In this document: positions 13,672-50,920 of the stretch, one piece after another
Layout: each line of letters starts with the position of its first letter
Position numbering within the stretch: position 1 is the first letter of the stretch
DNA from: an uncultured virus (IMG/VR IMGVR_UViG_3300040957_000063)
Lineage: Duplodnaviria > Heunggongvirae > Uroviricota > Caudoviricetes
Strand: one strand, 5' to 3'
Length of the DNA: 64,000 nucleotides
Virus record (IMG/VR): IMGVR_UViG_3300040957_000063
Notes under the pieces: generated by a model
Database searches by the model: none
Told to the model about the DNA's origin: nothing
The model's input: the letters and a program-made list of their open reading frames with translations, nothing else
Made by a program: the position numbers and the translations under genes

Positions 13672-14086
13672 ATTAAGGCTTCCTAAAGTAACTGTCCCAG
13701 AGATGCAGACCTAAACAGGTCGCTATTAATGCTACAACAACTATGGCAAATATTATCATTTACGATAACCTCTTTGACGTTGTATGCATAGTTCGCATTC
13801 TTCAGATTCTTTTTCATTAGTTGGCAAATATGGACAACCATCGCAAGGCGAATCGTCACGGTCAACTTCTGGTTTACAAGACATTATTGTTTAGCCTCAA
13901 AATTGTCGTGGAGATATGGGTTGCTTTCACAGTTAATACACTTGCGCGTAAGAATGTTTTTGCAATCTGAACAGGCGTGAATCATGTAAAATCCCTGTTA
14001 TGTAAGTAATACTTGCAGAATGCTATCCAGCAAATTGTTCCTGAAACCAAGAACGCTAACGTAGCTATTAATCCGTATAGGTCCAT

Positions 14087-14284
14087 TTATTCACCCCAAT
14101 CTTCGCCTTCAATAGTTAGTTCTTCTACCTTGCAAACTTTGTTTGTTACGTTGTCAACGATTATTATAGAAACAGATTTAACTTCTAACTCTAACCCGCA
14201 ACAAGGGCACGAAGTTACTTCGCCTATTCTAAAGTCGTCAGCTATATCGAATTCTGTATCGCAATCTGGACATTTAGCTTTCAT
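14087..14284 (-). CDS. lysW: LysW/ArgW-like amino-group carrier protein
   Basis: CPDC...GEVTSCPCCGLELEV and C-terminal EDWGE signature. Confidence 0.85.
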   Translation of the reverse strand: MKAKCPDCDTEFDIADDFRIGEVTSCPCCGLELEVKSVSIIIVDNVTNKVCKVEELTIEGEDWGE

Positions 14285-14687
14285 TATTTATTTCACTAAT
14301 AGTGTTATGTAGCCGCACTATATAAACGTTATGGTGTAATCTATGGTCTCATTTTGGTCCAAAAATAGGTCATAAAATGGTCCAAAATTTATGCCTTTTT
14401 TTGCGTATAAATTAACATTTTTTGTTAAGAAATTGTTGCCAAAACATCCGCAAACAACAATTATACACGAAAAAATGGGCAAATTACCAACAGTATTGAA
14501 AAAGCCCCGTCTGGTCGGTTTTCCGCCGCTGATGCGGCGTGGAATTAATCTACTGATTAAACTTTGCCCTAAGACAAACATTGCCCTGAGATAACCGCCC
14601 GTGGCTCTGCACCGCACAAGGTCGTTCGTCCCTTATAAATGTTGCGGAACCGCAATACTTAAATACTTGCGTTACCATAAATAGAAT

Positions 14688-14966
14688 ATGAACCAAAAAA
14701 TACAAAAGATTATTCTTAGGTTTCTGAAATATAACATTATAGGGTCTATGTGCTGGGTTACAAATTTTGGAATTTACACATTTATTTATTATCCATACTT
14801 ACATTTCTGGTCCATTATACCATTCAGCATCAGTGGGGCAATTATAGAGTTTACGGCTCTCTCAATTGCAAATCGTAGTGTGAATGCTGAGATGTTCGTT
14901 TGTAAAGTTGCTTCTACACTTGATAAATCAGGGTTAGATGACTTAGAGGCAGACCATAAAGTTTAA
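14688..14966 (+). CDS. GtrA-like small membrane protein
   Basis: RFLKYNIIG...NF N-terminus; hydrophobic helices. Confidence 0.5.
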   Translation: MNQKIQKIILRFLKYNIIGSMCWVTNFGIYTFIYYPYLHFWSIIPFSISGAIIEFTALSIANRSVNAEMFVCKVASTLDKSGLDDLEADHKV

Positions 14967-15523
14967 ATAGACGAACATAGTATAACTATATGGTGACTCT
15001 ATGAGCAATCAAACTATATCTACTTCGGCATTTCCTAATAACTGGACAGGTTCCATTTCATCAACTACCCAATATTGGTATAATTTAGATTCTGGTACAA
15101 ATGGAATTCCGTGGACTGTTCCAGATAAGTCGCTAATTTCTAGGTTTATTGAATGGATTAAGTTATGTCCGTTATTTGACCATAAGATTTAAATAGGCGT
15201 TTGTGCCTATATAGGCTGTTGATACTATGTCTGCCGAAAGAGACCCAACACGAAGAGATATACCAATCAATCCGCCAGTACGCAATAGCAGAGAATTATG
15301 GGCAAGTATGAATTTTAGATGTAGTGTACAAGCTGGATTTGGAGATTCGGTAGTACCTGAAGACACTATTGTAGAAAACAACGATGGCAAGCATCCTTCG
15401 GAAATTAAGCGTATGAAACAAGCAAACGGAGTACCTACAAAATGACGCATAATGCATAATCCAGTTGATTGAACTACGCTCGGTTAACGGCTGGGCGGTT
15501 CGCTGGTAGGCGGTGCGTCAATA

Positions 15524-15709
15524 ATGGGAGCAAACATAAAGGTACAATGTCAAAAATGCAAAATGGTCTTCAGCAGATATAACTACGGACCGATGAGCCG
15601 AAAGCCTAATAAAGGGCGGCATCACCAGCACCATAGAGGAAATGAACATCTTGAAGCAACTGACCCCTGTTACTATTGTAATGGTCAGGTAAAGATTATC
15701 ACCCGTTGA
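15524..15709 (+). CDS. small zinc-ribbon protein
   Basis: CQKC...CYYC. Confidence 0.5.
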   Translation: MGANIKVQCQKCKMVFSRYNYGPMSRKPNKGRHHQHHRGNEHLEATDPCYYCNGQVKIITR

Positions 15710-15751
15710 GACCGTAAAGTTTAAATAGTAGTTCCCCATTTTATTTATTTA

Positions 15752-15862
15752 GAATGTACTCACAACCGAAGACTGTGACCAACTTCGGATGGTAGAGAGC
15801 GGGCAAACGAGTGGTATAGCACGATAAGCCCGCACATGTGTAGGTTCGAACCCTATCATTCA
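15752..15862 (+). ncRNA. tRNA-like RNA of non-standard structure
   Basis: TATA at 15720; GAATG/CATTC ends; T-arm GTAGG TTCGAAC CCTAT; internal hairpins. Confidence 0.4.
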
Positions 15863-15892
15863 AATGTTGTAGTCGTAGGTGGTGAATGTAGT

Positions 15893-16204
15893 ATGAAAGT
15901 TGAAATAATCGTAGATAAAGACAATACTCATTTTACGTATATGTATGAATGCGACCAAGTAAAAGACAATTCTAACATGATGAGCGATGGACGAAACAAA
16001 CTTGTGCTTTTAAGAGAAAGAACCAAAGCTGAACAAGCTCTTAGCGCGGGAATTTATGAAACAGTTGCAGTTTTCGCTACTTGGACAGCTTGGATTAAGT
16101 TGCCAGACGATGCAGAGAAATGCGAACGGTGCGGACGATACAAGATAATCAACAAGAAAGGGTATTGCTCTGAATGTCAAACTCACATTGATAGGAAAAT
16201 ATGA
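15893..16204 (+). CDS. hypothetical protein with C-terminal zinc finger
   Basis: GGTGA RBS; CERC...CSEC. Confidence 0.6.
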   Translation: MKVEIIVDKDNTHFTYMYECDQVKDNSNMMSDGRNKLVLLRERTKAEQALSAGIYETVAVFATWTAWIKLPDDAEKCERCGRYKIINKKGYCSECQTHIDRKI

Positions 16205-16255
16205 GCATGGACTTAATACCATAAGATTTAAATATTAGTTCCCCTATTTATTGTT

Positions 16256-16685
16256 TTATGCGAACGGGTTGATTCGAAGGTTTGAGACAACCCATATGGC
16301 AGAAATGCGAAATGGGCTTGGGTGTCAAGAATCAGAGTCAAAAGCGATGATGTACACTCCCTCGTGGAGTAGCGAGCCTACCTTGTTTGCGTCTAAAGCC
16401 TAAATGGTAACAGCAAGTGCCTGATGAGTGCGCTATGATTTAGGGCTACTGTTCGAATGGCTTATCATACTCACCAGCGTTCCCCGAAGCGGTGTCTTGA
16501 GGATACCAGTCTTCACTACCGTATTCGGTTAAGGACGTTGGTAATTCATAGTCGCTCTCGTGATGAAGCCGTAAATATTGGCGACATAGACGGCTGAACC
16601 CGTAGTATCATAGTCACAGGCTGGGAAGTTATCACCGATGAAAGTAGCTGAGGGCTACGCATACCCAACCTAAGACATACTTTTT
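16256..16685 (+). ncRNA. large (about 430 nt) structured ncRNA candidate
   Basis: Promoter 16218-16234; no ORF; higher GC; many stems; T-tract end. Confidence 0.55.
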
Positions 16686-16725
16686 ACAGAAAGGTTTAAA
16701 TAGTAGAACAAATACTATATATAGT

Positions 16726-16879
16726 AGATGGGTAGCGAAACACGGCTGAACGCGCTTGGCTTAAGCGTCATATTAGACCTTGAGGGCGTAGCTAAGAAGT
16801 GCGCTAAACTCAAAAGGTTTCGTACTGAGATACCAAGTACAAGGAAACATTGTGGGTTCAAATCCCACCCCATCTACCA
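16726..16879 (+). tRNA. tRNA-Leu(TAA) with 66-nt BHB intron (16766-16831)
   Basis: Cloverleaf with CCA; intron at 37/38; CTTA/TGAG helix with two 3-nt bulges. Confidence 0.9.
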
Positions 16880-17018
16880 TTAACAATTTACAATGACCAA
16901 AGTATGCGGAGATTGCGAAAAATTCAATCGGAGCTACGGGTTCTGTAAGCAGACAGGCTACCAACACGGCGTATGGAGCGAATGTGACAGGAAATATCGT
17001 CAAAAACGGCATGTTAAT

Positions 17019-17046
17019 TGAGAGGTAAGGTAGTCTGGTCTAACCT
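17019..17046 (+). pseudogene. 5' remnant of a disrupted tRNA
   Basis: TGAGAGG acceptor strand plus D-arm AGGT..ACCT; partner remnant at 17584-17602. Confidence 0.7.
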
Positions 17047-17049
17047 AAT

Positions 17050-17125
17050 TGCGAAGTGTTTGGTAACGGTAGCCAATAAGACTCATAATCTTAAAGAAAC
17101 GGTTCGACTCCGTTCTTCGCAACCA
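17050..17125 (+). tRNA. tRNA-Met(CAT)
   Basis: TGCGAAG/CTTCGCA; TAAGA CT CAT AA TCTTA; TTCGA T-loop; CCA. Confidence 0.85.
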
Positions 17126-17189
17126 AATTATGTTAAGGTTTATAGAAAAGTTTAAATAGTAGTATAAACCCTATATACTTAGTGAGAAT

Positions 17190-17585
17190 ATGCCATTTAA
17201 AGATAAAGAAAAGAGAAATGCTTATCAAAGAGAATATCTAAAGAAATATCATAAAAAATATAAACTTCTTGCTATTACTAAACTCGGTGGTAAATGCGTT
17301 AATTGTGGTTGTGATGATATAAATGCTTTGGAATTTAATCATATTAACGGCGGCGGCTGGAAAGAGTTTCAAAAATCTCATAGAAACCAAGATTATTATC
17401 GTGATATTGTTCTGGGTAAAAGAAATGATATTGAGTTGACCTGTGGAGTTTGTAATGCTCTTCATCGTTTAGTAAAATTAAAAAAATTACCTAACCTCTG
17501 GAAAGTTACTTATACTAAACCAATGACAGACAAGGAACTTGAAGAATATCGGATTAATAGAGAATTAGACGAAGAAGCGGGATAA
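17190..17585 (+). CDS. HNH endonuclease (NHINGGG subfamily)
   Basis: LGGKCVNCGC..LEFNHINGGG..LTCGVCN. Confidence 0.85.
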   Translation: MPFKDKEKRNAYQREYLKKYHKKYKLLAITKLGGKCVNCGCDDINALEFNHINGGGWKEFQKSHRNQDYYRDIVLGKRNDIELTCGVCNALHRLVKLKKLPNLWKVTYTKPMTDKELEEYRINRELDEEAG

Positions 17586-17602
17586 TCCGCCTCTCTCAAC
17601 CA
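17584..17602 (+). pseudogene. 3' remnant of the disrupted tRNA
   Basis: AATCCGCC TCTCTCA A CCA pairs with TGAGAGG at 17019. Confidence 0.7.
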
Positions 17603-17808
17603 TTTTTTGTTAGTATTGACCGAAACCTTTATATAGGGGTTGTATCATTTACAGTTATATAGGTTCATTACTTGAGAGAAGATGACTATGGATGGCAAAG
17701 GAAGATAAGACTATGAATTCAAAAATATTAGATGCGTTAATTCTTGCGAAAACCAGTTGCACAAGTGTTAGTGAGGACCTAAAAAAAATTAATATGGAGA
17801 AGGTATAA

Positions 17809-18216
17809 ATGGCAGAAACAAACACTCAACTTCTGGAAAAAGTTTTGGAAATTGTTCAAGTAATGGGTGAAGTTCGTGAACGATTAAATGGATTCGTCCA
17901 AAAATGCAAAGATACGGACGTAGGTACAGCTAAATCAATAGATGACCTACAGAAAAGAATGAGCGTCCTTGAACTTGAAGGCACAAAAATTGTTCGTGAA
18001 CTTATTAAGCAAGAAGACGAGAAAGTTCGATGCAATGCTGAAGCTCTTAGTATCGTAGTCAAAGACCTTGAGGATTTAAAGATTGATTTAGTAAACGTTA
18101 AAGCACAAAGGGCAATCATAGGTTGGAAAATAGGTGCAGTTATATCTATAATATCTATTGGAGCTACAGTAGGCATAACATACTTCATAAATTATGTCCT
18201 TCCACATCTGCTTTAG
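17809..18216 (+). CDS. coiled-coil protein with C-terminal TM helix (holin/XhlA-like architecture)
   Basis: Heptad pattern plus hydrophobic tail. Confidence 0.6.
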   Translation: MAETNTQLLEKVLEIVQVMGEVRERLNGFVQKCKDTDVGTAKSIDDLQKRMSVLELEGTKIVRELIKQEDEKVRCNAEALSIVVKDLEDLKIDLVNVKAQRAIIGWKIGAVISIISIGATVGITYFINYVLPHLL

Positions 18217-18255
18217 ACCATAACATTTAAATAGTTCTTTTCTATTATTCTATAT

Positions 18256-18381
18256 GGGATAGCGACAGTCTGGTATGAAGTTATGATGTTGGTTGGCTCA
18301 GGCTGTAGATGCATAGCGTCCTAACAATGCTGGTTAGGTATGGCTAAGGGTGGATTCCAGCATCAATCGCCCTTCTATCCT
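18256..18381 (+). ncRNA. 126-nt multi-hairpin RNA with complementary loops
   Basis: Promoter near 18218-18235; terminal helix GGGATAG/CTATCCT; four internal hairpins. Confidence 0.55.
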
Positions 18382-18621
18382 CTGCGAGCGGTGGGGATGC
18401 GGAGCTTACTCCCCTAACCCACCGTAAGATTTAAATACTTGTTTGTTATATTACTAAGACTATTAAAGGCGAAAATAAATGACTGAAAAACTTCAGAAAT
18501 GTGGCAAACACGAATGCCACCAAGATTGCGAGGTTTGCCGTATATTAGCTAATGGCAAATCTAAGTCTTCTTTTTCTCACAGTCGTTGGTCACCTTTTTC
18601 GTAAATGTTTTGAAACCTCGT

Positions 18622-18786
18622 GGTGAGTTGGCAGAGTCAGGTTTAATGCACCAGACTTGAATCAGTTCGCTCAAGGGTGAAACTGCTAAGGGTGAAACTC
18701 GAAGCATGGAATGGAATTTTCCAACCTGACAGAAATCTGGTGACCCTTTCGGGGGTCCGCTGGTTCAAATCCAGCACTCACCGCCA
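18622..18786 (+). tRNA. tRNA-Ser(TGA) with intron (about 18662-18734)
   Basis: Long variable arm; G73; CCA; intron at 37/38 with relaxed BHB. Confidence 0.85.
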
Positions 18787-18799
18787 TTAATCTTTTCAC

Positions 18800-18873
18800 G
18801 GGGTTATGTTGTAACAGTAGCATGTAGGTCTCCAAAACCTTCGGTCTCTGGGCGGCACAGAGTAACCCCACCA
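18800..18873 (+). tRNA. tRNA-Trp(CCA)
   Basis: GGGGTTA/TAACCCC; CT CCA AA loop; atypical T-loop GGCGGCA. Confidence 0.8.
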
Positions 18874-19083
18874 ATTAACAAACCAGTATTTTACCATGCT
18901 TTGTCCATGCGGCTGGTATCGCAAGCGTTACTTTCTCACTTTTTTAATCATATGATTAACTGATTCAAATCGTAAGACTCAAGCCTTGACGGTTCCTACC
19001 GACCCCCAAAATTCTTTTAATCTACTGATTAATTTACTCCGCAAAGTTTATATATTACGATGTTTAATAATTAACGATGATAT

Positions 19084-19314
19084 ATGACAGGAAAAATTGA
19101 ATATAAACGTTCTGGAAAAAAACTATTGAAAGTTATAACTGTTGAAGTTAATGAAAAAAGGATAAAAGGTAAAATTACAAGATTGTCAAATGAGCTTAGA
19201 CATTCAGAAGAACAAATCGTTGCTTGGACCAAGACAAGGGACACTTTGAAGGCTGAAATTACTACTTTAGAAAAAGCTCAAAATAGTAGTCCAGAAACAG
19301 TTTCATTTGATTAG
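19084..19314 (+). CDS. small coiled-coil protein
   Basis: TATA upstream; 76 aa. Confidence 0.6.
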   Translation: MTGKIEYKRSGKKLLKVITVEVNEKRIKGKITRLSNELRHSEEQIVAWTKTRDTLKAEITTLEKAQNSSPETVSFD

Positions 19315-19604
19315 ATAAAGTAAAAAAATAGGGTATGGTGCGATATACCAATTTAATTTTGTGCTTTTATCTAAGCACTTTCTTTAATAGCTATAACTGC
19401 AACTACGGTAGCAACGAAAACGACTACTGCCGCGACTAATGGGTGAACAGCAAGCATGAAAGCGAATGAGCCAGTAACTATGCCTGTTGCGATTGCTCCT
19501 ATATATAGTTTATTTAAATTAGTTATGTATATTCACCTACCTTCTAACCCCTATACCTTAGTAGGCTACTATTTAAATCTTTTGTTTTTATATAACAAAA
19601 TTAG

Positions 19605-19682
19605 TGGTGGGGTAGGTAGGATTCGGACCTACGCTCACTCGGTTCCAAACCGAGAATGTTGACCAAGCTACACCACTACCCC
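19605..19682 (-). tRNA. tRNA-Pro(TGG)
   Basis: CTCGG TT TGG AA CCGAG; CCA. Confidence 0.85.
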
Positions 19683-19687
19683 ATTAT

Positions 19688-19761
19688 TGGTAGGCATACC
19701 ATGAGTTGAACATGGGCTACAGCTTTATCAGAACTGTGTGCTACCACTACACTATACGCCT
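19688..19761 (-). tRNA. tRNA-Ile(GAT)
   Basis: CAGTT CT GAT AA AGCTG; CCA. Confidence 0.85.
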
Positions 19762-19772
19762 TCTTTTGTTAT

Positions 19773-19847
19773 TGGTGGGCAATGGCAGAGTTGAACTGCC
19801 GCTGGGGACTTATAAAGCTCCCTATGCTACCGTTACACCAATCGCCC
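19773..19847 (-). tRNA. tRNA-Ile(TAT)
   Basis: GGAGC TT TAT AA GTCCC; CCA. Confidence 0.75.
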
Positions 19848-19849
19848 AA

Positions 19850-19923
19850 TGGTGGGGAATGAATGAATCGAACACTCTCTACATGAGTCCGAGTCATGGG
19901 TGCTACCATTACACTAATTCCCC
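19850..19923 (-). tRNA. tRNA-Pro(CGG)
   Basis: CATGA CT CGG AC TCATG; CCA. Confidence 0.85.
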
Positions 19924-19983
19924 GTTTTGTGATTTTTGTTATGTTTGTTATTTTCGTTATGTCTGTTATGCTTGTTATGTGAA

Positions 19984-20058
19984 TGGCGGGCGCATGGGGA
20001 ATCGAACCCCAACTTCCAACGTGACAGGCTGGCGTGTTAGCCGTTACACTATACGCCC
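19984..20058 (-). tRNA. tRNA-Asp(GTC)
   Basis: CCAGC CT GTC AC GTTGG; G73; CCA. Confidence 0.9.
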
Positions 20059-20061
20059 AAA

Positions 20062-20135
20062 TGGTGGTCGTACTCCGAGTTACACGAAGACCCAAACGGT
20101 GTAAACGTTTGATGCTATTGTTACACCATACGACC
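20062..20135 (-). tRNA. tRNA-Val(TAC)
   Basis: AAACG TT TAC AC CGTTT; atypical T-loop; CCA. Confidence 0.8.
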
Positions 20136-20504
20136 TCACTTTAAATAGTGAATTGCATTTCTCAATAAAGTAGTATTGTCTTTGAACATACCTATTCCGC
20201 CATTGCATTCTCTACAAAGCAATCCTCTGATTTTTCCTGTTTTATGGTCGTGGTCAATGTATGGAGTAGTAATGAATGGTTTTTTACATATTGCACATTT
20301 ATTATCTTGAGATTTAATCAACTTTTCAAGTTCTATATTAGTTAAGGAATATTGACGTAATAAATCTAACTTTCTTTGTTGTGAATAATAGTTTGATGTT
20401 ATTTTCTTCAGTTTTTCTGGATGTCTTAGTTTCCACTTTTTTGACCGCGAAATAGGCATATTGGTATATTGGTCTTGTATTATCATATTAGAGTATATAT
20501 ACAT
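20136..20504 (-). CDS. endonuclease VII-like HNH nuclease
   Basis: QDNKCAIC..IDHDHKTGKIRGLLCRECNGGIG. Confidence 0.85.
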   Translation of the reverse strand: MYIYSNMIIQDQYTNMPISRSKKWKLRHPEKLKKITSNYYSQQRKLDLLRQYSLTNIELEKLIKSQDNKCAICKKPFITTPYIDHDHKTGKIRGLLCRECNGGIGMFKDNTTLLRNAIHYLK

Positions 20505-20539
20505 TCCACTATTTAAGCCTTATGGATACTTTGGATACT

Positions 20540-20614
20540 TGGCGGGGACGGAAGGACTTTGACCCTCAATCGGATGCTTCGAAGGCATCTGCATTGTGAT
20601 TGTGCTACGTCCCC
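20540..20614 (-). tRNA. tRNA-Arg(TCG)
   Basis: GATGC CT TCG AA GCATC; CCA. Confidence 0.8.
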
Positions 20615-20654
20615 ATGTTCGCTGTTCTTTATATATGTTCGCTATTAGCGAAAG

Positions 20655-20729
20655 TGGCGCAAGGAGAAGGAATCGAACCTTCATCTAACGCTTAACAGGC
20701 GTTTGCCCTAGCCATTGAGCGACCCTCGC
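20655..20729 (-). tRNA. tRNA-Asn(GTT)
   Basis: AACGC CT GTT AA GCGTT; CCA. Confidence 0.9.
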
Positions 20730-20734
20730 AATAT

Positions 20735-20808
20735 TGGTGGAGAGTGTGTGAGTCGAACACACGTTCTCTGGGTTTCAGCCAAAGGGACTCCCGTTAGCCT
20801 AACTCTCC
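20735..20808 (-). tRNA. tRNA-Phe(GAA)
   Basis: TTTGG CT GAA AC CCAGA; CCA. Confidence 0.85.
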
Positions 20809-20813
20809 GTTAT

Positions 20814-20885
20814 TGGGTCTTAGGGAAAGATTCGGACTTTCTAAAGTGGATTCACAGTCCACCTTGCTTCCAAAGCACCTAAGAC
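20814..20885 (-). tRNA. tRNA-His(GTG) with encoded G-1 and reduced D-arm
   Basis: GTGGA CT GTG AA TCCAC; 8-bp acceptor; C73. Confidence 0.8.
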
Positions 20886-20886
20886 A

Positions 20887-21258
20887 CTATTTTGTTAGTT
20901 CTGGATGATGAATTTCTTGATGACAATTTGAACAAAGAAGTACCACAATTTCTAACTCTTTAATGAATTTATCATATGAATATCTGAGAAAATTTCTTTC
21001 TTTACTCCAATGTTCTTTTTTACCATCTGGATGATGAAATTCTAATGCGGCTAAATTTCTTCTATAGCCATCAGGACATGCACAATTAGGATTAGAGCAT
21101 CTACCACCTTTTAATTCTACAGCATATTCTTTTCTTTTTTGTCGTAATTTTAATTTAGCTTTAGATGCATCTTTTTCTTTTTCTGGATGTTGAAGTCTCC
21201 ATTTTCGCATATATTCTTTATGATAGATTTTATTTTTATTTTTATCTTTGTAAGGCAA
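20887..21258 (-). CDS. HNH endonuclease
   Basis: GGRCSNPNC..ALEFHHPDG..LLCSNCHQEIH. Confidence 0.85.
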   Translation of the reverse strand: MPYKDKNKNKIYHKEYMRKWRLQHPEKEKDASKAKLKLRQKRKEYAVELKGGRCSNPNCACPDGYRRNLAALEFHHPDGKKEHWSKERNFLRYSYDKFIKELEIVVLLCSNCHQEIHHPELTK

Positions 21259-21316
21259 TTGGTTTCACCGATATTATTTATATGTAAACCCCTATTTAAA
21301 TGTTATGGTTATTGAG

Positions 21317-21391
21317 AGGATGTACGGGGATTTGAACCCCGATATGTGGATTAAAGGTCCACCGCACTCTTCCTGATTATGCTATACATCC
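21317..21391 (-). tRNA. tRNA-Lys(TTT) with C33 and no encoded CCA
   Basis: GTGGA CC TTT AA TCCAC; GGATGTA/TACATCC. Confidence 0.7.
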
Positions 21392-21396
21392 GCAAT

Positions 21397-21474
21397 TGGA
21401 GCACCTAACGGGATTCGGACCCGTGTATGTGGGTTAAAGGTCCACCGCACTCGTCCTGACTATGCTAATGGTCC
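21397..21474 (-). tRNA. second tRNA-Lys(TTT)-like gene with C33 and mismatched acceptor stem (possible pseudogene)
   Basis: D and anticodon arms nearly identical to neighbour; acceptor GGACCAT/TAGGTGC has 3 mismatches. Confidence 0.55.
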
Positions 21475-21821
21475 ATATTTTGATTATTGGAGCACCATCT
21501 TGGCAAGTTGTAGAATTGCTTAAGGAACTGATACGATGGTATAATCGAAACAAGGAAAAATGTCCCCCACTGGTTTTAGCCGCTGTTATCCATAATCAAT
21601 TCGAGATGATTCATCCTTTCCAAGATGGAAACGGCAGAGTTGGAAGACTACTCCTAAATAATATTCTGTTGAAACATAATCTTCCGCCTTTGAATATTGA
21701 ACTAAGAAACAGAGCGCAATACTATGCCGCACTGCAAGCCTATGAAAATGACCATAATATACGTCCGACTCTGGATTTAATGCTCAAAGAATACAGAGCA
21801 CTCAAGAAAATGCTTACATAA
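21462..21821 (+). pseudogene. Fic-domain protein, C-terminal fragment
   Basis: HPFQDGNGRVGR motif; N-terminal part missing; antisense within tRNA array. Confidence 0.75.
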
Positions 21822-21969
21822 GGTGACTACAATTACAAAAAATGTAGTCACCCAATAAGTCCTCTGCAAGATAAGGATGAACGCAAGAAGAACCTTTTTG
21901 AGTCATTAAATCAGACAATTGAACTGCGACCTAGAGCGCTTCTCGCGTGTATTAAGTTAATAAGAGAAG

Positions 21970-22045
21970 TGGTGCAGATGGTGGGAATCGAACCCACATT
22001 TTCGTTGTGGTAGAACGACAGGTTAGCCGTTAACCTCACATCCGC
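21970..22045 (-). tRNA. tRNA-Gly(ACC)
   Basis: GCG start; TCGTT CT ACC AC AACGA; TTCGA T-loop; CCA. Confidence 0.8.
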
Positions 22046-22051
22046 GCAACT

Positions 22052-22127
22052 TGGAGAGGGTAAAGGGACTTTCACCCCTATATAGTAGTTTTGCAAACTA
22101 CCCCGTTAGATTTTTCGGCATACCCTC
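22052..22127 (-). tRNA. tRNA-Cys(GCA)
   Basis: GTAGT TT GCA AA ACTAC; U73; CCA; 5' end overlapped by HNH ORF. Confidence 0.8.
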
Positions 22128-22517
22128 ATTACAATAAGTTACTTTCCAATTATTAGGTAATCCTTTAAGTTTTACAAGATAATGAACTGAATTACAAACT
22201 CTGCAAGTTAGTTCCACATCTTTTCTCTCATCTCTTAGAATAGCAAGATAAAAACTTCTTTGATTATGATTTTTAGTCACGCCTTTTCTCATCTCTTTAC
22301 ATCCGCCGCCATTGATATGATTAATTTCTAAGGCTTCAAGATTGTCGCAACCACAATATATGCATTTTCCACCAAGTTTTTGGATTACTTTAAGGCGAAT
22401 ATTTTTCCAATATTCTTTTGCTCGATTTCTATGGTCTTTTGCCCATTTTCTATCATATTCTCTTTTTTTCTCACCAGTATATACCACTATATCACCAGTA
22501 TTATATAGTACGACCAA
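22098..22517 (-). CDS. HNH endonuclease (NHINGGG subfamily)
   Basis: LGGKCIYCGC..LEINHINGGG..LTCRVCN. Confidence 0.85.
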   Translation of the reverse strand: MVVLYNTGDIVVYTGEKKREYDRKWAKDHRNRAKEYWKNIRLKVIQKLGGKCIYCGCDNLEALEINHINGGGCKEMRKGVTKNHNQRSFYLAILRDERKDVELTCRVCNSVHYLVKLKGLPNNWKVTYCNEGMPKNLTG

Positions 22518-22536
22518 GTATTTAAATGTTATGTCG

Positions 22537-22569
22537 AACTACCGTGTTTGACCACTTCACCATACCCCC
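22537..22569 (-). pseudogene. 5' half remnant of a tRNA-Cys-like gene
   Basis: GGGGGTA TGGTGAAGTGGTCAAACACG GTAGTT, interrupted at the anticodon loop by the HNH promoter. Confidence 0.7.
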
Positions 22570-22751
22570 ATCATTTTTTGTTAAGTAATAGCGTAAGATT
22601 TATATAGTAGTGTTCAGTATTATAAGTAAATGGTGAAAATATGTTTACAATAATTGATATTGCCTCTGCATTTGCAATTGTTGGATGCTTTAGTTACGTT
22701 ATTCTACAGCTAAAGAAAGAGTTAAAGGATTAACACGATTGAGGTTAACTA

Positions 22752-22827
22752 TGGCACAGGCGGAAGGACTCGGACCCTCATCCACTACGTTAGAAGCGTA
22801 GGACTCTATCCATTGAGCTACGCCTGT
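22752..22827 (-). tRNA. tRNA-Arg(TCT)
   Basis: CTACG CT TCT AA CGTAG; CCA. Confidence 0.9.
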
Positions 22828-22841
22828 ATTAATTGAGTTAT

Positions 22842-22962
22842 TGGTAGTCCCTGTGGGAGTCGAACCCACGCCGCAAGCTATCCCCCAACGAGTGTTCAGA
22901 GGCATAAGCTCCCGAACTTGGTTGTTCAAGGACTTGCTTCCTTCCGTTAGAGATAAGGGACT
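22842..22962 (-). tRNA. tRNA-Gln(TTG) with BHB intron and C33
   Basis: A1-U72; CAAGT CC TTG A|intron|A GCTTG; CCTT/GGGG helix with GAA and ATA bulges. Confidence 0.85.
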
Positions 22963-23329
22963 GTGCTGACTTTAGAACAGCGATAGAATGTCATGTTCAG
23001 GGAAATGAGCTTTGAGCTTTTTTACCCCGCAACAAAATGCGTTTAGACCAACCAGCACACCACACATATATCGATGGCAACGGTTTAGGTGTTTTTTGGT
23101 TTACTGTTGGGTCGTTCTAAATTTGCCTATGTGGTCCGCTGGTGCGTCTTCTCCGATACACCGCTTAAAACGAATATTATAGACTACTGATGTTGCCATC
23201 ATTACAGACCACTTCAATGTACCTTATTGATATAACATTCTCCTATATAAATCTTATGGTTACAAGTTCATACTCAAATAACCGTAATCTTTATATAGGT
23301 CATTGATGTATCTTTTTACAGGCGATAAA

Positions 23330-23533
23330 ATGAAACTCTCTAAAGAAGATTGGACTCAGTTAGATTTATTGTTGAGTAAAGTAGGATTCGGTGGCTACTA
23401 TGATTTTGTAGAATGCCTAAGAATGGCTATAACTAATTTAGCTCCCGAATTAAGTAATGTCATTAAAAAAGAGGCAGACATCCAAATGTTAGTAACATTA
23501 TTACTTAAAGTAAGTACAAGGAGTGAGAAATAA
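23330..23533 (+). CDS. hypothetical protein
   Basis: TATA, then MKLSKEDW ORF. Confidence 0.55.
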   Translation: MKLSKEDWTQLDLLLSKVGFGGYYDFVECLRMAITNLAPELSNVIKKEADIQMLVTLLLKVSTRSEK

Positions 23534-23534
23534 A

Positions 23535-23846
23535 ATGGATAAGTTTGAAGAAATGTTAAGATTACAAAAAGAATTCCAAGATAAGTATGGTTTTACCAAA
23601 GTTGGTCTTGATAAAATAGCGATGGCTATGGCGGCTGAATCTGGCGAACTTTGGGATGCATCTGATGGTAAATGGTGGAAAAAAACTAAAGATACTCCTG
23701 AACATCGTCTTGAAGAACTTGTTGACCTTTGGCACTTTTTTATGGCATATATGCTTGAGGCTAAAATATCCCCTACTCAATTTTTCGAAGCCTATAAAGC
23801 AAAGTTAGCAATTAACTACCAAAGACAGGAGAGTAAAACATATTGA
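23535..23846 (+). CDS. all-alpha (dimeric dUTPase/MazG-like) NTP pyrophosphatase
   Basis: AESGELWD..KWWKK..LEELVDLWHF..K.AINYQRQ. Confidence 0.8.
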   Translation: MDKFEEMLRLQKEFQDKYGFTKVGLDKIAMAMAAESGELWDASDGKWWKKTKDTPEHRLEELVDLWHFFMAYMLEAKISPTQFFEAYKAKLAINYQRQESKTY

Positions 23847-24028
23847 AGACAACAATTAAATTTGCCATTCCAATAGGTGGAATAATCTCGTTTATAATAT
23901 TCATATATATGATTGTATATGGGGTTTGGGCAGATATAAGTTTTTGGATGAAAGTTTTAGTAGTTCTTTTATTCATATTTATGTCTGTGTCTGGTTGGAT
24001 AGAATACGAAAGGACAGTTGAGAAATGA
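23843..24028 (+). CDS. small membrane protein
   Basis: Two hydrophobic helices; coupled start. Confidence 0.55.
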   Translation: MKTTIKFAIPIGGIISFIIFIYMIVYGVWADISFWMKVLVVLLFIFMSVSGWIEYERTVEK

Positions 24029-46753: not shown

Positions 46754-49700
46754 ATGCTATACACAGTCTCAGCAACTTATGATTATTCGTTAGAATGCAT
46801 AGTTTTGAAGTTGTACAATGACGAAGCTGGAATGCTTGAGTCTTATTATGACTACCAATTCAAGCCCTTCTTTTACTCTAAAGAGAAGCAAAAGTTTGAG
46901 GGAATAATCAAACAGGAAGAGGTAGAATTGTATGATGCACTCAACGACCAGAAAGTTACCGTATGGAAAATTACCTGTAAAAACCAAGAGGTAATTTCTA
47001 AATTCAATAATAAATCTCCTGAAGTTGTAGCTTGGGAGAATCATATTAAGCCTTATATGCGCTATATCTACGATACTAACACTAAAATGGGGATGCCTTA
47101 TGTTCGAGAAAGTGGGGCACTCGTTTTTAATGGTAGTGCAGAGGCAGAGAAACGAGTTGAAGAACTAACTGACCTTGTTAACCCAGAATCATTCAACAAA
47201 ATTATCTGTGAGCAAATGGCTCGGCTTCTTGAGTATCCAGCACCAATATTTAAGCGAGTTTCCTTAGACATTGAAGTGTGGAGTGAAGGACAGAAGATGC
47301 CAAGTCCAGCCGCCGCTAATTTACCAGTAATTTGTGTTGGAATGATGAGCAATACTGGCGAAAAATACCTTTATGTATTAGTACAAGAAGACAAGCCGTT
47401 TTCGTGTCCTAAAGATGCCAATATTTTCTGGTTTTCGGACGAAGCTGAACTTTTAAGGGCAGTTTTCGCTAAAGGCAATGAGTTTCCGTTTATAGTTACA
47501 TTCAACGGCGATGACTTTGACCTTCCATATCTAATGAATCGAGCACTTAGATTAGGGGTGCCGATGAGTGAAATCCCAATAACTTTCAAAGAGAAAGAGA
47601 AGATTTCCATCTGGAATAATGCGGTCCATATAGACCTATACAAGTTTTTCTCTATCAAATCAATGCAGAACTATGCTTTTCAGCAGAAATACAAGAACAT
47701 TTCTCTTGATGAAATCTCATTGGCGTTAATAAAGAAGGGTAAACTCAAGGGCGACCACGAATGGGTTAATGATATGACCTATGAAGAGCTTCTAACTTAC
47801 TGTTTAAACGATGCTTTACTCACAATGGAACTAACAACTTACAGCGATAACGTAGTAATAAACTTGATTCTTGTCTTAGCCAGACTAAGCTATATGCCTA
47901 TGGAACAAGTCAGCCGAAAGCCTATTTCCCAATGGATTAGGAGCTTCATTTATTACGAGCACGTTAAAAAAAGTATGCTTATTCCGCGCTCTGAAGACAT
48001 TATAGCTATGAAGGGAACAACAACAACTACTGCACTAATCAAGGGTAAAAAGTATAAAGGCGCAATAGTAGTTAATCCTGTAGCTGGATTCCATTTCAAT
48101 GTTAAAGTTGGAGACTTTGCTTCTCTTTATCCATCAATTATTAAAAACTGGAATCTTGGGTATGCAACTGTAAATTGTAAATGTGGAGCTTTATGGAAAC
48201 AAATAATGTTATATACAACCGAAAGAGTTATATACCGTGAATTACATAAATGTTTACGGTGTAATAACCAATGCCAAGTAGAAGAAAAAATGAAACAAAT
48301 GTTGAATATAAACAAAGATGTAAAAAATATTCAGCAAAATGGAGATTTGAACACCCAGAAAAAGCCAAGTCTATTCAACGAGATTCCTATAAAAAGTCAA
48401 TGCTTGACCCAAAAAAACGAAAACGAAAACAACAAAGGGATAAAAAATTTCGTGATGCCAATCCAGAATATGGGAGAAAACGAGCAAGAGAATATGCCAG
48501 AAGAAATAGGGGAAAAATGCGAGATAGATATGAAAGATGGTCAAAATCTAAACGAATTACCTTCTTTAACGCCAGAGGAAACAAATGCGAGAGATGCGGC
48601 TTTAATGACGAACGAGCCTTTGAAATACATCATATCAATGGAAACAAAATACCAAGAGAGGAAAGAAATAATATTACAACACTTGTTACGGAAAATTGGG
48701 ACGAACTGCAATTGTTGTGTGCAAATTGTCACAGAATTGTTCACCGCTTATGAGTGTTATTCTCATAAAGTTGCCAATATGCAACATTGGATTTGCACAA
48801 AAAACAGGGCTGTAGAATCTCAATTGATTGGTGTCCTGAAGGATTTACGTGTCAAGAGCTACAAGAAGAAGGCAAAGGACAAGACTAATCCTCATAAAGC
48901 GTGGTACTCGGTATCAGAACAAGCCATTAAAGTCATTTGCAATGCTTCTTACGGAGTATTCGGAGATGACACATTTGTTCTATATTGTCCACCTATGCCT
49001 GAGTACGTTACAGGAATCGGACGATGGATTATTACTCAGACAATCAAACACGGTCAAGAATTAGGCTTAAACATTATCTACGGCGATACTGATTCTATCT
49101 TCATTAAGAATCCGCCCCAAGAAGTATTAGACGAGCTATTGGCTTGGGCAAAGAAGAATTTTGACATTGACTTCGAACTTGATAAAGAATATCGTTATGC
49201 ATGTCTCAGCGCACGAAAGAAGAATTACTTTGGTGTTCTTAAAGACGGCACAGTTGATGTGAAGGGCTTAACTGGAAAGAAAAAACACACACCAAAAATA
49301 ATTAAATATCCATTTGAAGAGACAAAGAAGTTGCTGGCTCAGGTTAATACCGAAGCTGATATTCTGGTTGCTAAGAAGGCTATATTGAAGCTGGTCAAAA
49401 GCACCTACCTAAAGATTAAGACACGAAACTTCGGGGATATGGAAAACTTAGCGTTCCACGTAACCGCTTCCAAAGATGTCGAGGATTATGACGGCGACCC
49501 ACAACACATTAAAGCGGCAAAGCTACTGAAGGCGGCTGGTCAAGACATCGGCGAGGGGTCAGACATTTCATTTGTTAAAACCAAAGATAAACTGAAGGTT
49601 AAACCAACTAAGTTGGCAAAACCAGACGATATTGACATCACGAAATACAACGAATTCTTAAAAAGCACATTCATACAGATTCTTGAGCCATTAGGTCTTG

Positions 49701-49759
49701 ATTGGGACCACGATATTCTCGGAATCTGTGTGATGGATAGATTCCTTACTTCTGAATAA
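46754..49759 (+). CDS. polB: family B DNA polymerase (crenarchaeal/thaumarchaeal type) with in-frame insert of about 190 aa
   Basis: DIE; FNGDDFD; DFASLYPSII; K...NASYG; YGDTDS; KKNY. Confidence 0.95.
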   Translation: MLYTVSATYDYSLECIVLKLYNDEAGMLESYYDYQFKPFFYSKEKQKFEGIIKQEEVELYDALNDQKVTVWKITCKNQEVISKFNNKSPEVVAWENHIKPYMRYIYDTNTKMGMPYVRESGALVFNGSAEAEKRVEELTDLVNPESFNKIICEQMARLLEYPAPIFKRVSLDIEVWSEGQKMPSPAAANLPVICVGMMSNTGEKYLYVLVQEDKPFSCPKDANIFWFSDEAELLRAVFAKGNEFPFIVTFNGDDFDLPYLMNRALRLGVPMSEIPITFKEKEKISIWNNAVHIDLYKFFSIKSMQNYAFQQKYKNISLDEISLALIKKGKLKGDHEWVNDMTYEELLTYCLNDALLTMELTTYSDNVVINLILVLARLSYMPMEQVSRKPISQWIRSFIYYEHVKKSMLIPRSEDIIAMKGTTTTTALIKGKKYKGAIVVNPVAGFHFNVKVGDFASLYPSIIKNWNLGYATVNCKCGALWKQIMLYTTERVIYRELHKCLRCNNQCQVEEKMKQMLNINKDVKNIQQNGDLNTQKKPSLFNEIPIKSQCLTQKNENENNKGIKNFVMPIQNMGENEQENMPEEIGEKCEIDMKDGQNLNELPSLTPEETNARDAALMTNEPLKYIISMETKYQERKEIILQHLLRKIGTNCNCCVQIVTELFTAYECYSHKVANMQHWICTKNRAVESQLIGVLKDLRVKSYKKKAKDKTNPHKAWYSVSEQAIKVICNASYGVFGDDTFVLYCPPMPEYVTGIGRWIITQTIKHGQELGLNIIYGDTDSIFIKNPPQEVLDELLAWAKKNFDIDFELDKEYRYACLSARKKNYFGVLKDGTVDVKGLTGKKKHTPKIIKYPFEETKKLLAQVNTEADILVAKKAILKLVKSTYLKIKTRNFGDMENLAFHVTASKDVEDYDGDPQHIKAAKLLKAAGQDIGEGSDISFVKTKDKLKVKPTKLAKPDDIDITKYNEFLKSTFIQILEPLGLDWDHDILGICVMDRFLTSE
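48271..48753 (+). CDS. HNH endonuclease nested out of frame inside polB
   Basis: GNKCERCG..FEIHHING..LQLLCANCH; own promoter at 48218-48235. Confidence 0.85.
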   Translation: MPSRRKNETNVEYKQRCKKYSAKWRFEHPEKAKSIQRDSYKKSMLDPKKRKRKQQRDKKFRDANPEYGRKRAREYARRNRGKMRDRYERWSKSKRITFFNARGNKCERCGFNDERAFEIHHINGNKIPREERNNITTLVTENWDELQLLCANCHRIVHRL

Positions 49760-50548: not shown

Positions 50549-50920
50549 GTGATTAAAATGCCATATAAAAGTAGCGATAAAAAACGTCAACATCAAAGAG
50601 ATTATGACCGAACACATAGAACCGAAAGGAAGGTATATCTTAAAAATTTAAGATTACGCGCTGTAGCAAAACTTGGTGGTAAATGTGTTAACTGTGGTTG
50701 TGATGATATTAATGCTTTAGAATTTAACCACATTAACGGCGGCGGAAATCAAGAGGGAAAAAAACATAAAGGTAATGGTTGGCGGTCAGCAACATTGTTT
50801 TATGAAATAATATCAGATAAAAGAACTGATATAGACCTTAGATGTAGAGTTTGTAATTCAGTTCATTACTTAGTAAAACTAAAGGGATTAAAAAATAGGT
50901 GGAAAATTATTTACACCTAA
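50549..50920 (+). CDS. HNH endonuclease (NHINGGG subfamily)
   Basis: Shares LGGKCVNCGCDDINALEFNHINGGG with the 17190 ORF. Confidence 0.85.
   Translation: MIKMPYKSSDKKRQHQRDYDRTHRTERKVYLKNLRLRAVAKLGGKCVNCGCDDINALEFNHINGGGNQEGKKHKGNGWRSATLFYEIISDKRTDIDLRCRVCNSVHYLVKLKGLKNRWKIIYT

What the first reader, a model, noticed from the sequence alone, without database searches (positions are those of the whole stretch)
17019..17602. HNH cassette breaks a tRNA gene and brings a replacement tRNA-Met
Seen: a tRNA 5' piece (17019-17046) and matching 3' piece with CCA (17584-17602) bracket an intact, divergent tRNA-Met(CAT), a promoter and an HNH gene whose stop fuses to the 3' piece. The old anticodon arm is missing. 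Both tRNAs have U1-A72 and A73. Known: free-standing homing endonucleases such as T4 SegB spread within tRNA regions. Inference: a cut-and-compensate element that removes its target and supplies a resistant copy.
Basis: partly seen in the sequence, partly recalled or inferred. Interest (0 to 1): 0.75.

Follow-up and report, generated by a model that had tools for sequence, protein, structure and literature searches.

The report
Nuclease cassette splits and replaces tRNA
A selfish DNA-cutting-enzyme gene, together with a complete methionine-type tRNA gene, sits inside the broken remains of an older tRNA gene with the same anticodon in an uncultured peat virus that probably infects archaea, so the virus lost one tRNA gene and gained a spare in the same stroke.

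Summary
A tRNA 5' part (17019-17049) and a matching T-arm remnant, acceptor strand, A73 and CCA (about 17574-17602) bracket an intact tRNA(CAT), a copy of the virus's own promoter motif and an HNH gene whose stop codon lies in the old T-loop remnant. This acceptor-complement-plus-CCA is the only such match in both strands of the window (0.0024 expected per 700 nt). In one peat run, two short contigs continue the 5' piece into an uninterrupted anticodon arm that reads CAT. An unrelated IMG/VR virus has an intact tRNA-Met(CAT) with 24 identical D-arm letters. So the broken gene had the same anticodon as its replacement.

The virus is a new tailed virus, probably of archaea. It carries at least 13 HNH-like ORFs. 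One close paralogue lies between a tRNA 5'-half-like fragment and an intact tRNA-Cys.

The insertion history is well supported. Not tested: that this nuclease cuts the old allele and spares the new one.

The closest published system is T4 SegB. I found no paper describing this nested break-and-replace layout, but earlier notes of this scan report it in other phages. I rate it a new variant of a known kind, of moderate interest.

The parts
17019..17049 (+). 5' remnant of an older tRNA(CAT) gene: acceptor strand, U8 A9, D-arm, A26 and the first two letters of the anticodon stem. It now serves as the 5' leader of the new tRNA.
   Evidence: Sequence. Two X11 contigs match 17014-17049 and continue into an anticodon arm with CAT. 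24 of its letters (17024-17047) are identical to an intact tRNA-Met(CAT) in L028.
17050..17125 (+). Intact, diverged tRNA(CAT) with encoded CCA. It is the only tRNA with this anticodon found in the window. Met is most likely; an Ile2-type tRNA is not excluded.
   Evidence: ARAGORN. Rfam tRNA at 37.8 bits, gathering score 29.
17151..17179 (+). Promoter-like element of the virus's own type: a TTTAAATAGTAG box and a downstream TATA-rich box, about 30 nt before the HNH start codon.
   Evidence: The motif occurs 17 times in the window against 1.01 expected. The same layout precedes tRNA-Leu (16695) and the HNH paralogue at 50518.
17190..17585 (+). HNH endonuclease gene (131 aa) with an intact Cys4 / His-Asn-His motif and a 22-aa C-terminal extension that ends in the old tRNA's T-loop remnant.
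   Evidence: PHROG HNH matches. 36 homologues with invariant C36, C39, H51, C85, C88 and H92. The paralogue at 50549 stops (TAA) where this gene has AAA. The best fold matches are HNH nucleases, though weak.
17574..17602 (+). 3' remnant of the older tRNA: a T-stem with a shortened 6-nt loop, the acceptor 3' strand, A73 and CCA.
   Evidence: Unique complement plus NCCA. It aligns with the 3' ends of the new tRNA and of the L028 tRNA-Met.
17603..17608 (+). Run of six T directly after the old CCA. It is the likely transcription stop now used by the HNH transcript (inferred).
   Evidence: Sequence. No experimental support.
22537..22569 (-). Possible second case: a tRNA 5'-half-like fragment (acceptor, D-arm with GG, anticodon-stem 5' strand) directly upstream of the promoter of a paralogous HNH gene. 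Its isotype is ambiguous.
   Evidence: Sequence. Weak nhmmer hit, E 8.7. It scores about the same against Pro, Ile and Cys 5' halves. Its D-arm 18-mer occurs in tRNA-Glu (2), tRNA-Cys (1) and 6 non-tRNA places among 9 IMG/VR loci.
22098..22517 (-). HNH paralogue, 49% identical to the cassette HNH. Its last 30 nt overlap the 5' end of an intact tRNA-Cys(GCA).
22052..22127 (-). Intact but atypical tRNA-Cys(GCA): no GG in the D-loop, and T-loop TGAAAGT. It abuts the HNH paralogue.
   Evidence: Rfam 48 bits. Missed by ARAGORN. Sequence.

Best explanation
A free-standing HNH homing-endonuclease gene with its own viral promoter, joined to a complete diverged tRNA(CAT) gene, was inserted into the anticodon arm of an older tRNA(CAT) gene of this virus.

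The insertion removed roughly positions 29-47 of the old gene. It left the first 31 nt as a leader in front of the new tRNA. It left the T-arm, acceptor strand and CCA behind the nuclease gene, where they now supply that gene's stop codon and probably its terminator.

Shown: the nested anatomy, the same anticodon in an uninterrupted allele, the intact nuclease motif, and the many nuclease paralogues.

Inferred: the nuclease cuts uninterrupted old-type alleles in co-infecting relatives. The carrier genome is immune because the site is destroyed and the new tRNA gene differs there. Repair from the carrier copies the whole block, so the recipient loses its old tRNA and gains the new one. The leftover pieces suggest that the founding event was an imprecise (non-homologous or microhomology) insertion rather than clean homologous replacement.
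For: Anatomy and non-chance pairing of the two pieces.

In run X11, two contigs match 17014-17049. They are preceded by 9 letters that end like a tRNA 3' end (..CCACCA) and followed by 19 letters that complete a 5-bp anticodon stem and a 7-nt loop with CAT.

In L028, an intact tRNA-Met(CAT) matches 27 of the 31 letters of the 5' piece (24 consecutive) and has a similar T-stem.

No other tRNA(CAT) was found in the window.

The HNH family has invariant Cys4 and His residues. 27 of the 29 homologues aligned end within 9 residues of the WK.xY motif, whereas this copy runs 22 aa further, up to the old T-loop.

The cassette promoter matches the virus consensus.

The window holds 3 close and at least 10 more distant HNH-like ORFs. 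Two of the 3 close ones touch tRNA genes.

All 5 Acidobacteriota genomes carrying a relative have it 50-110 nt upstream of tRNA-Ser(TGA).

X9 contigs have 12 differences in 16898-16982 but none in 16983-17280. They have none in 17280-17607 or 17578-17881, and then 20 further on. This fits a recently shared block inside diverged flanks.

SegB precedent: a homing endonuclease in a tRNA cluster that cuts inside tRNA genes and replaces the recipient's tRNA region (PMC2330249, abstract and Discussion).
Against: No cleavage data exist for this enzyme, and its target is unknown.

Only 64 letters of the uninterrupted allele were seen, in one of four runs laid. Its 3' half and its genome are unknown, and a diverged paralogue in the unseen ~25 kb of this virus is not excluded.

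The JGI metagenome scan found only the same virus (2 loci, 1 and 3 differences from the window). Neither IMG/VR pattern that includes the acceptor-stem letters found a match.

The old 5' piece is no closer to the new tRNA than to other tRNAs of the cluster: its best score is against Val.

The family is not tRNA-specific. Only 1 of 17 IMG/VR loci has a tRNA in the DNA fetched (up to 3 kb each side), the one Bathyarchaeia locus has none, and one close paralogue sits beside the reductase gene.

The X9 contigs have different depths and may come from more than one strain.

The second case has no assignable isotype.
Confidence: 0.6

Rival explanations
1. Incidental scar. The tRNA cluster of this nuclease-laden virus is constantly rearranged by breaks and recombination between tRNA genes. 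The old tRNA(CAT) was broken, and a neighbouring tRNA(CAT) and a promoter-plus-HNH unit ended up inside it in one or more unrelated steps. The nuclease need not target the old tRNA, and the new tRNA is not part of a mobile unit.
For: The promoter-plus-HNH unit occurs without any tRNA beside the reductase gene. The window has at least 13 HNH-like ORFs plus an endonuclease VII gene. The cluster has other decayed or duplicated tRNAs, such as a degenerate tRNA-Lys copy beside tRNA-Lys. SegB-type enzymes drive recombination at microhomologies between tRNA and nuclease genes (PMC13096335, section 7). The old piece is not specially similar to the new tRNA.
Against: The new tRNA lies inside the old gene, so two or more precise events would be needed. 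The broken gene and the inserted one share an anticodon that occurs nowhere else in the window. The new tRNA starts exactly at the junction. Earlier notes of this scan report the same nested, same-isotype layout in other phages (these are unchecked leads).
Confidence: 0.27
2. The two pieces are functional. Either they are exons joined after removal of a very large archaeal-type (bulge-helix-bulge) intron that contains a tRNA and a nuclease gene, or they form a processing or terminator structure for the transcript.
For: The host is probably archaeal, and the neighbouring tRNA-Leu has a perfect splice motif. The T-run after the old CCA may act as a terminator. Archaeal rRNA introns can carry nuclease genes (recalled from general knowledge).
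Against: Joining the pieces would give an RNA with no anticodon arm. The splice-motif scan over 14,036 junction pairs gave only hits at about the number I estimated for chance (about 0.3 expected for the best one, my own arithmetic), and these do not sit at the tRNA junctions. No intron family appeared in Rfam at E up to 10. An uninterrupted allele with its own anticodon arm exists.
Confidence: 0.05
3. Chance resemblance: the flanking pieces are not tRNA remnants.
For: Neither piece is reported by ARAGORN, Rfam or my nhmmer profile. The T-loop remnant is not canonical.
Against: 0.0024 expected matches per 700 nt. X11 continues the piece into a CAT anticodon arm. 24 letters are identical to an intact tRNA-Met.
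Confidence: 0.02

Closest known systems
Phage T4 SegB, a free-standing GIY-YIG homing endonuclease in the tRNA gene cluster (PMC2330249: abstract and first part of the Discussion read)
   Same: The nuclease gene lies among viral tRNA genes. It cuts inside tRNA genes, and homing carries the flanking tRNA genes while the recipient's tRNA-region markers are lost. The nuclease reading frame ends at or in a tRNA gene. The carrier must avoid cutting itself.
   Different: SegB is GIY-YIG, not HNH. It lies between intact tRNA genes rather than inside the remains of one. It recognises the T-loop motif, whereas here the break is in the anticodon arm. SegB is transcribed from the cluster promoter, whereas this gene has its own. 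SegB's host is bacterial. Cleavage and homing are shown for SegB and not here.
[quoted passage not shown]
   Same: Free-standing nuclease genes scattered through a large viral tRNA cluster.
   Different: I saw no report of broken target tRNAs flanking them or of same-isotype replacement. I did not read the primary papers.
SegB-driven segmental amplification of tRNA-Tyr in phage T6 (PMC13096335: abstract and sections 7, 9 and 10 read)
   Same: Nuclease-made breaks in a tRNA region are repaired through short homologies. This gives new junctions between tRNA and nuclease sequences and altered nuclease C-termini. The nuclease is statistically associated with tRNA genes.
   Different: That outcome is a tandem repeat of tRNA plus truncated nuclease under defence pressure. 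It is not a nested replacement of a broken gene.
Mobile element in the tRNA-Thr gene of Caldiarchaeum subterraneum that leaves a 5' tRNA fragment upstream of a complete tRNA (PMC3293823: abstract only)
   Same: A leftover 5' tRNA fragment, an inserted mobile block and a complete tRNA of the same isotype next to it, seen as population heterogeneity in an uncultured archaeal setting.
   Different: That element encodes a recombinase and is about 1.8 kb. It is an integrase or transposon type of event in a cellular genome, and the result is discussed as intron gain and tRNA splitting.
Intron- or intein-borne homing endonucleases, for example group I introns in bacterial and phage tRNA genes (PMC3984707: search listing and abstract only)
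   Same: A nuclease gene sits inside an essential gene, and the harm is neutralised.
   Different: In those cases the harm is undone by RNA or protein splicing. Here no intron is detectable, and the harm is offset by a second complete gene.

Membership tests
HNH (beta-beta-alpha-metal) endonuclease superfamily | Catalytic His in an H-N context, a downstream Asn and His, and here two CxxC pairs for zinc | tested here: met
   In the alignment of 30 sequences, C36, C39, H51, C85, C88 and H92 are invariant, and N50, N53 and N89 are at least 90% conserved.
HNH (beta-beta-alpha-metal) endonuclease superfamily | Significant match to curated HNH profiles | tested here: met
   PHROG HNH families phrog_2255 (E 3e-10), phrog_4234 (2.4e-6), phrog_1985 and phrog_3106. 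Against this, Pfam-A gave no family at E up to 0.1, and a profile search of PDB sequences gave none at E up to 1.
HNH (beta-beta-alpha-metal) endonuclease superfamily | HNH fold | tested here: inconclusive
Free-standing homing endonuclease gene (intronless homing, SegB type) | The ORF is not inside a self-splicing intron or an intein | tested here: met
   No intron family in Rfam at E up to 10 over 16600-18900. It is a separate ORF with its own promoter motif.
Free-standing homing endonuclease gene (intronless homing, SegB type) | Presence/absence polymorphism at the same locus among relatives | tested here: inconclusive
   Two X11 contigs are uninterrupted at the left junction and share 5 letters upstream of the tRNA. 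Only 64 letters were seen, in one of four runs laid. No such allele turned up in the JGI or IMG/VR scans.
Free-standing homing endonuclease gene (intronless homing, SegB type) | Site-specific cleavage of the allele that lacks the gene, and resistance of the carrier allele | not testable with these tools
   Needs purified enzyme and DNA substrates.
Free-standing homing endonuclease gene (intronless homing, SegB type) | Co-conversion of flanking markers | tested here: inconclusive
   X9 contigs show no differences over 16983-17881, with 12 differences in the 85 nt to the left and 20 to the right. The three contigs differ in depth and may belong to different strains.
Archaeal bulge-helix-bulge intron or split tRNA | A splice motif at both junctions, and exons that join into a complete tRNA | tested here: not met
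   The motif scan found no motif at the tRNA junctions, and the best hits elsewhere are at chance frequency. The joined pieces would lack the anticodon arm.
Integrase-type insertion into a tRNA gene (attL/attR with a duplicated tRNA part) | A recombinase gene in the insert and a direct repeat of the tRNA segment at both ends | tested here: not met
   The HNH gene is the only ORF in the roughly 520-bp insert with a family match. The two remnants are different, non-overlapping parts of the tRNA.

The most novel reading that the evidence does not exclude
In this probably archaeal virus, a lineage of promoter-bearing HNH genes repeatedly invades tRNA genes at the anticodon arm and spreads together with diverged "escape" tRNA genes. 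The viral tRNA set is thereby progressively rewritten into atypical, nuclease-resistant forms.

This would explain why the tRNAs that touch nuclease genes (Val, His, Cys and the new Met) are among the lowest-scoring or least canonical in the cluster. It would also make nuclease-tRNA conflict a driver of viral tRNA evolution across bacterial and archaeal viruses.
Probability: 0.2. Interest if true: 0.75.

Novelty: new variant of a known kind. Interest (0 to 1): 0.55.

Why it matters
Homing endonucleases normally avoid harming their carrier in one of two ways: they sit between genes, or they hide in a self-splicing intron or intein. Here the harm of landing inside a gene appears to be offset by a complete spare gene.

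If the nuclease really targets the old allele, the block is a self-contained cut-and-replace element for a non-coding RNA gene. It would be a natural route by which viral tRNA sets are overwritten.

This case adds three things. The setting is probably an archaeal virus. There is population evidence for an uninterrupted allele with the same anticodon. A related second nuclease-tRNA junction lies in the same genome.

It also gives a simple bench test: one small enzyme and two short DNA substrates.

Tried and rejected
Searches for close relatives:
- Megablast of 16600-17900 found no match in the phage collection.
- tblastn of the terminase found no match there.
- The terminase found no relative in IMG/VR.
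- Two IMG/VR scans for the old tRNA with patterns that include its acceptor-stem letters, and one with the 19-letter loose end, gave 0 hits.
- The single JGI metagenome scan returned only the same virus.
- No whole genome is held for the window. The metagenome record could not be searched as a handle, so about 25 kb of this virus outside the window was not seen.

Splice-motif idea for the two pieces: rejected.

Group I or other ribozyme: nothing in Rfam.

Partial tRNA-Ser duplicates next to the Acidobacteriota HNH genes: none above noise.

Isotype of the second fragment: it is about equally similar to Pro, Ile and Cys. Its D-arm 18-mer lies in tRNA-Glu (2), tRNA-Cys (1) and 6 places without a called tRNA among 9 IMG/VR loci, so I make no same-isotype claim there.

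The contigs with loose ends at 17280 and 17356 are the virus's own paralogue at 50549 cross-matching. They are not foreign alleles.

Host domain: a sigma-70-type reading of the promoter motif is also possible (9 of 12).

Full report
WHAT IS THERE. From 17019 there is a 7-nt acceptor strand, U8 A9, a 4-bp D-stem, an 11-nt D-loop with the GG pair, the returning D-stem strand and A26. At 17050 a complete tRNA(CAT) begins. ARAGORN calls it at 17050-17125. Rfam scores it 37.8 bits against a gathering score of 29, among the lowest of the 16 tRNA matches at or above the gathering score in 14000-24000. Its junction between acceptor stem and D-stem is irregular.

After 25 nt comes an exact copy of a 12-nt motif (17151-17162). 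This motif occurs 17 times in the window at up to one mismatch, against 1.01 expected. It also precedes tRNA-Leu at 16695 and several ORFs, so it is the virus's own promoter type.

The ORF 17190-17585 matches four PHROG HNH families (best E 3e-10). Pfam gives nothing at E up to 0.1. Its stop codon lies in a short hairpin (17577-17590). This is followed by a strand that pairs with 17019-17025 (six Watson-Crick pairs and one G-T), then A73, CCA and six T.

IS IT MORE THAN CHANCE? A 7-nt complement of the 5' strand (at most one G-T) followed by NCCA occurs once in both strands of the 64-kb window, at 17592. Shuffles give 0.22 per 64 kb, or 0.0024 in the 700 nt downstream.

Two independent results show that the 5' piece is a real tRNA part. 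First, when contigs of four peat runs were laid on 16300-18500, run X11 had two short contigs matching 17014-17049. Nine letters that end like a tRNA 3' end precede the match. Nineteen letters follow it and, together with the last two matched letters, form a 5-bp stem and a 7-nt loop with anticodon CAT. Second, an 18-letter pattern from the D-arm found two places in IMG/VR. One of them (L028) is an intact tRNA-Met(CAT) that shares 24 consecutive identical letters, and 27 of 31 overall, with the 5' piece and has a similar T-stem. That locus shares nothing else with the window.

The 3' piece aligns with the variable loop, T-stem and acceptor strand of both the new tRNA and the L028 tRNA. Its loop is a shortened 6-nt one that holds the stop codon. 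I therefore set the remnants at 17019-17049 and about 17574-17602. Roughly positions 29-47 of the old tRNA are missing, and nothing like them is elsewhere in the window.

THE NUCLEASE. A search of the large protein collection gave 36 homologues. In an alignment of 30 sequences, four cysteines and two histidines are invariant. 27 of the 29 homologues end within 9 residues of a WK.xY motif. The window's copy continues for 22 more residues. A close paralogue at 50549-50920 has TAA where this gene has AAA. So the extension into the old tRNA looks like a lost stop codon, with the next stop supplied by the old T-loop remnant. A 92% identical homologue has the same extension.

THE GENOME AROUND IT. 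The window encodes a large terminase, a family B DNA polymerase, a ribonucleotide reductase, a dCMP deaminase and an FKBP26-type isomerase. It has no detectable relative in the phage collection or, for the terminase, in IMG/VR. All 24 runs listed hold at least part of the stretch: 19 are labelled peat, 4 wetland and 1 soil metagenomes. Two JGI contigs of 86 and 93 kb carry the same arrangement, with 3 and 1 differences over about 11-12 kb.

The host is probably an archaeon, for three reasons:
- tRNA-Leu(TAA) at 16726-16879 carries a 66-nt intron at position 37/38 with an exact helix / 3-nt bulge / 4-bp helix / 3-nt bulge / helix motif. This arose in 332 of 100,000 intron shuffles.
- The promoter motif contains a TATA-box-like TTTAAATA about 25-30 nt before the tRNA or start codon.
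- In the protein atlas, the five nearest clusters shown for the FKBP26-type protein are 95-100% archaeal (a lead only).

Against this, tRNA-Ser(TGA) has a 73-nt insert with no such motif. The promoter motif can also be read as a weak sigma-70 pair. All the tRNA genes but one (tRNA-Lys) encode CCA.

A NUCLEASE-LADEN tRNA CLUSTER. A profile of the family finds three close copies in the window (17190, 22098 on the minus strand, and 50549) and at least ten weaker HNH-like ORFs. There is also an endonuclease VII gene. In the cluster, nuclease ORFs end within a few nt of tRNA-Val and tRNA-His, and the 22098 copy overlaps tRNA-Cys by 30 nt.

Upstream of the 22098 copy's promoter lies a 33-nt stretch that looks like a tRNA 5' half (acceptor, U8, D-arm with GG, five stem letters). 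This gives the order fragment, promoter, nuclease, intact tRNA. I report it as a possible second case only. The profile hit is weak (E 8.7). The fragment scores about the same against Pro, Ile and Cys. Its D-arm occurs in tRNA-Glu and tRNA-Cys genes of other viruses.

The third close copy lies at the 3' end of the reductase gene, with its own promoter and no tRNA. The minimal mobile unit may therefore be promoter plus nuclease.

Outside this virus, 5 of 5 Acidobacteriota genomes with a relative have it 50-110 nt upstream of tRNA-Ser(TGA). One Bathyarchaeia peat genome has a relative with no tRNA called nearby. Only 1 of 17 IMG/VR loci has tRNAs in the DNA fetched, up to 3 kb each side.

POPULATION HINTS. 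In run X9, one contig (413 nt) has 12 differences from the window in 16898-16982 and none in 16983-17280. A second (328 nt) has none in 17280-17607. A third (837 nt) has none in 17578-17881 and then 20. This fits a recently shared block that includes both old pieces, set in diverged flanks, as homing with co-conversion would give. But the contigs differ in depth and need not be one strain. Another X9 contig diverges completely after 17000, and one joins 17607 to 18212. The neighbourhood is therefore mosaic.

MECHANISM. Best supported (0.6): one imprecise insertion of a block holding the new tRNA, the promoter and the nuclease gene into the anticodon arm of the old gene. Since then the composite has spread by recombination. 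That the enzyme cuts uninterrupted old alleles and spares the new gene is inferred by analogy with SegB. SegB cuts inside tRNA genes and replaces the recipient's tRNA region (PMC2330249, abstract and Discussion). It also drives recombination at short homologies between tRNA and nuclease sequences (PMC13096335, sections 7 and 9).

The main rival (0.27) is an incidental scar of several rearrangements in a break-prone cluster. A spliced or structural role for the pieces (0.05) and chance (0.02) are poorly supported.

COMPARISON AND NOVELTY. Free-standing homing endonucleases in viral tRNA clusters are known. What I did not find in print is a nuclease gene nested, together with a complete same-anticodon tRNA, inside the remains of the gene it displaced. 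Searches turned up nothing; \"truncated tRNA\" with \"homing endonuclease\" and \"phage\" gave 0 papers. Subscription journals are not covered.

The nearest archaeal parallel is a recombinase-bearing element in a Caldiarchaeum tRNA-Thr gene (PMC3293823, abstract).

Earlier notes of this scan describe the same layout in other phages for Leu, Thr, Pro and CAT-anticodon tRNAs. I did not check them and do not count them as evidence for this case. They do suggest that the layout recurs, which lowers the surprise of one more instance and raises the interest of the class.

Whether the CAT tRNAs here accept methionine or are Ile2-type cannot be told from sequence. Neither has the three G-C pairs of initiator anticodon stems, and the virus also has tRNA-Ile(TAT).

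Noticed in passing
window 16726-16879 (+): tRNA-Leu(TAA) has a 66-nt intron at 37/38 whose junctions form an exact archaeal bulge-helix-bulge motif (332 of 100,000 shuffles). It starts about 31 nt after a promoter motif, so it probably has no leader.
   Followed up: partly
window 18622-18786 (+): tRNA-Ser(TGA) has a 73-nt insert in the anticodon loop and no canonical splice motif. The fold shows a 3x3 internal loop followed by a 4-bp helix. By eye, the insert shares a GCTAAG...AAACTC stretch with the Leu intron. It resembles earlier scan notes on tRNA-shaped genes with folded inserts (e1-5856676, e1-5855547).
   Followed up: partly
window 18800-18884 (+): A tRNA-Trp(CCA)-like gene with good acceptor and anticodon arms and CCA, but a non-canonical T-loop (GGCGGCA). 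ARAGORN and Rfam both miss it; only a weak nhmmer hit marks it.
   Followed up: no
window 15752-15865 (+) and 16258-16690 (+): Two stretches without a convincing ORF (none of 60 aa or more) start about 31 nt after promoter motifs. The first is a 114-nt cloverleaf-like RNA with a TTCGAAC T-loop, two 6-bp arms and no CCA. The second is about 430 nt, ends in TTTTT and has no Rfam match. An abundant 3.7-kb contig in run X9 (depth 35) matches parts of the second and skips 69 nt (16393 to 16463).
   Followed up: no
window 22840-22966 (-): A tRNA-like gene of about 127 nt with a canonical T-arm, a matching 7-bp acceptor stem and CCA, but a long unresolved middle. It may hold an intron at an unusual position. 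The relaxed ARAGORN call (Thr, 35-nt intron) is not convincing.
   Followed up: partly
window 21316-21474 (-): Two tandem tRNA-Lys(TTT)-like genes. The upstream one has only 4 of 7 acceptor pairs (31.8 bits), and the downstream one lacks an encoded CCA. A promoter motif and another HNH gene (20887-21258) follow, ending 3 nt before tRNA-His.
   Followed up: no
window 21462-21821 (+): A Fic/DOC-domain ORF (Pfam E 2e-16) lies inside the tRNA cluster on the strand opposite to the tRNAs.
   Followed up: no
window 48271-48753 (+), inside the polymerase ORF 46754-49759: An HNH-like ORF (E 8e-8 to the family profile) is open in a second frame within the DNA polymerase B ORF. It falls in the 330-residue gap between that protein's exonuclease and polymerase domain matches. 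It may be a nuclease insertion that the polymerase frame reads through.
   Followed up: no
window 16893-17021 (+): A 42-aa cysteine-rich ORF lies between tRNA-Leu and the old tRNA piece. It differs by about 14% between strains in run X9. In the X11 allele a tRNA 3' end lies only 5 nt before the old tRNA, so the ORF appears to be absent there. TTAA occurs at both of its borders.
   Followed up: partly
window 17607/18212: One X9 contig joins 17607 (just after the old CCA and T-run) to 18212, skipping the two small ORFs 17692-18216. Only 30 letters lie on the shorter side of the joint.
   Followed up: no
L020, L022-L025 (Acidobacteriota genomes): In 5 of 5 genomes, a relative of this HNH family (39-47% identity) lies 50-110 nt upstream of tRNA-Ser(TGA) on the same strand. 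I found no tRNA fragments beside it.
   Followed up: partly
window 19600-22830: A post hoc pattern: the tRNAs that touch nuclease ORFs have low tRNA scores. Val is not reported by Rfam at E up to 1, His scores 32.9, the new Met 37.8 and Cys 48. Most of the others score 50-64. This is suggestive only, because I defined the groups after seeing the data.
   Followed up: partly
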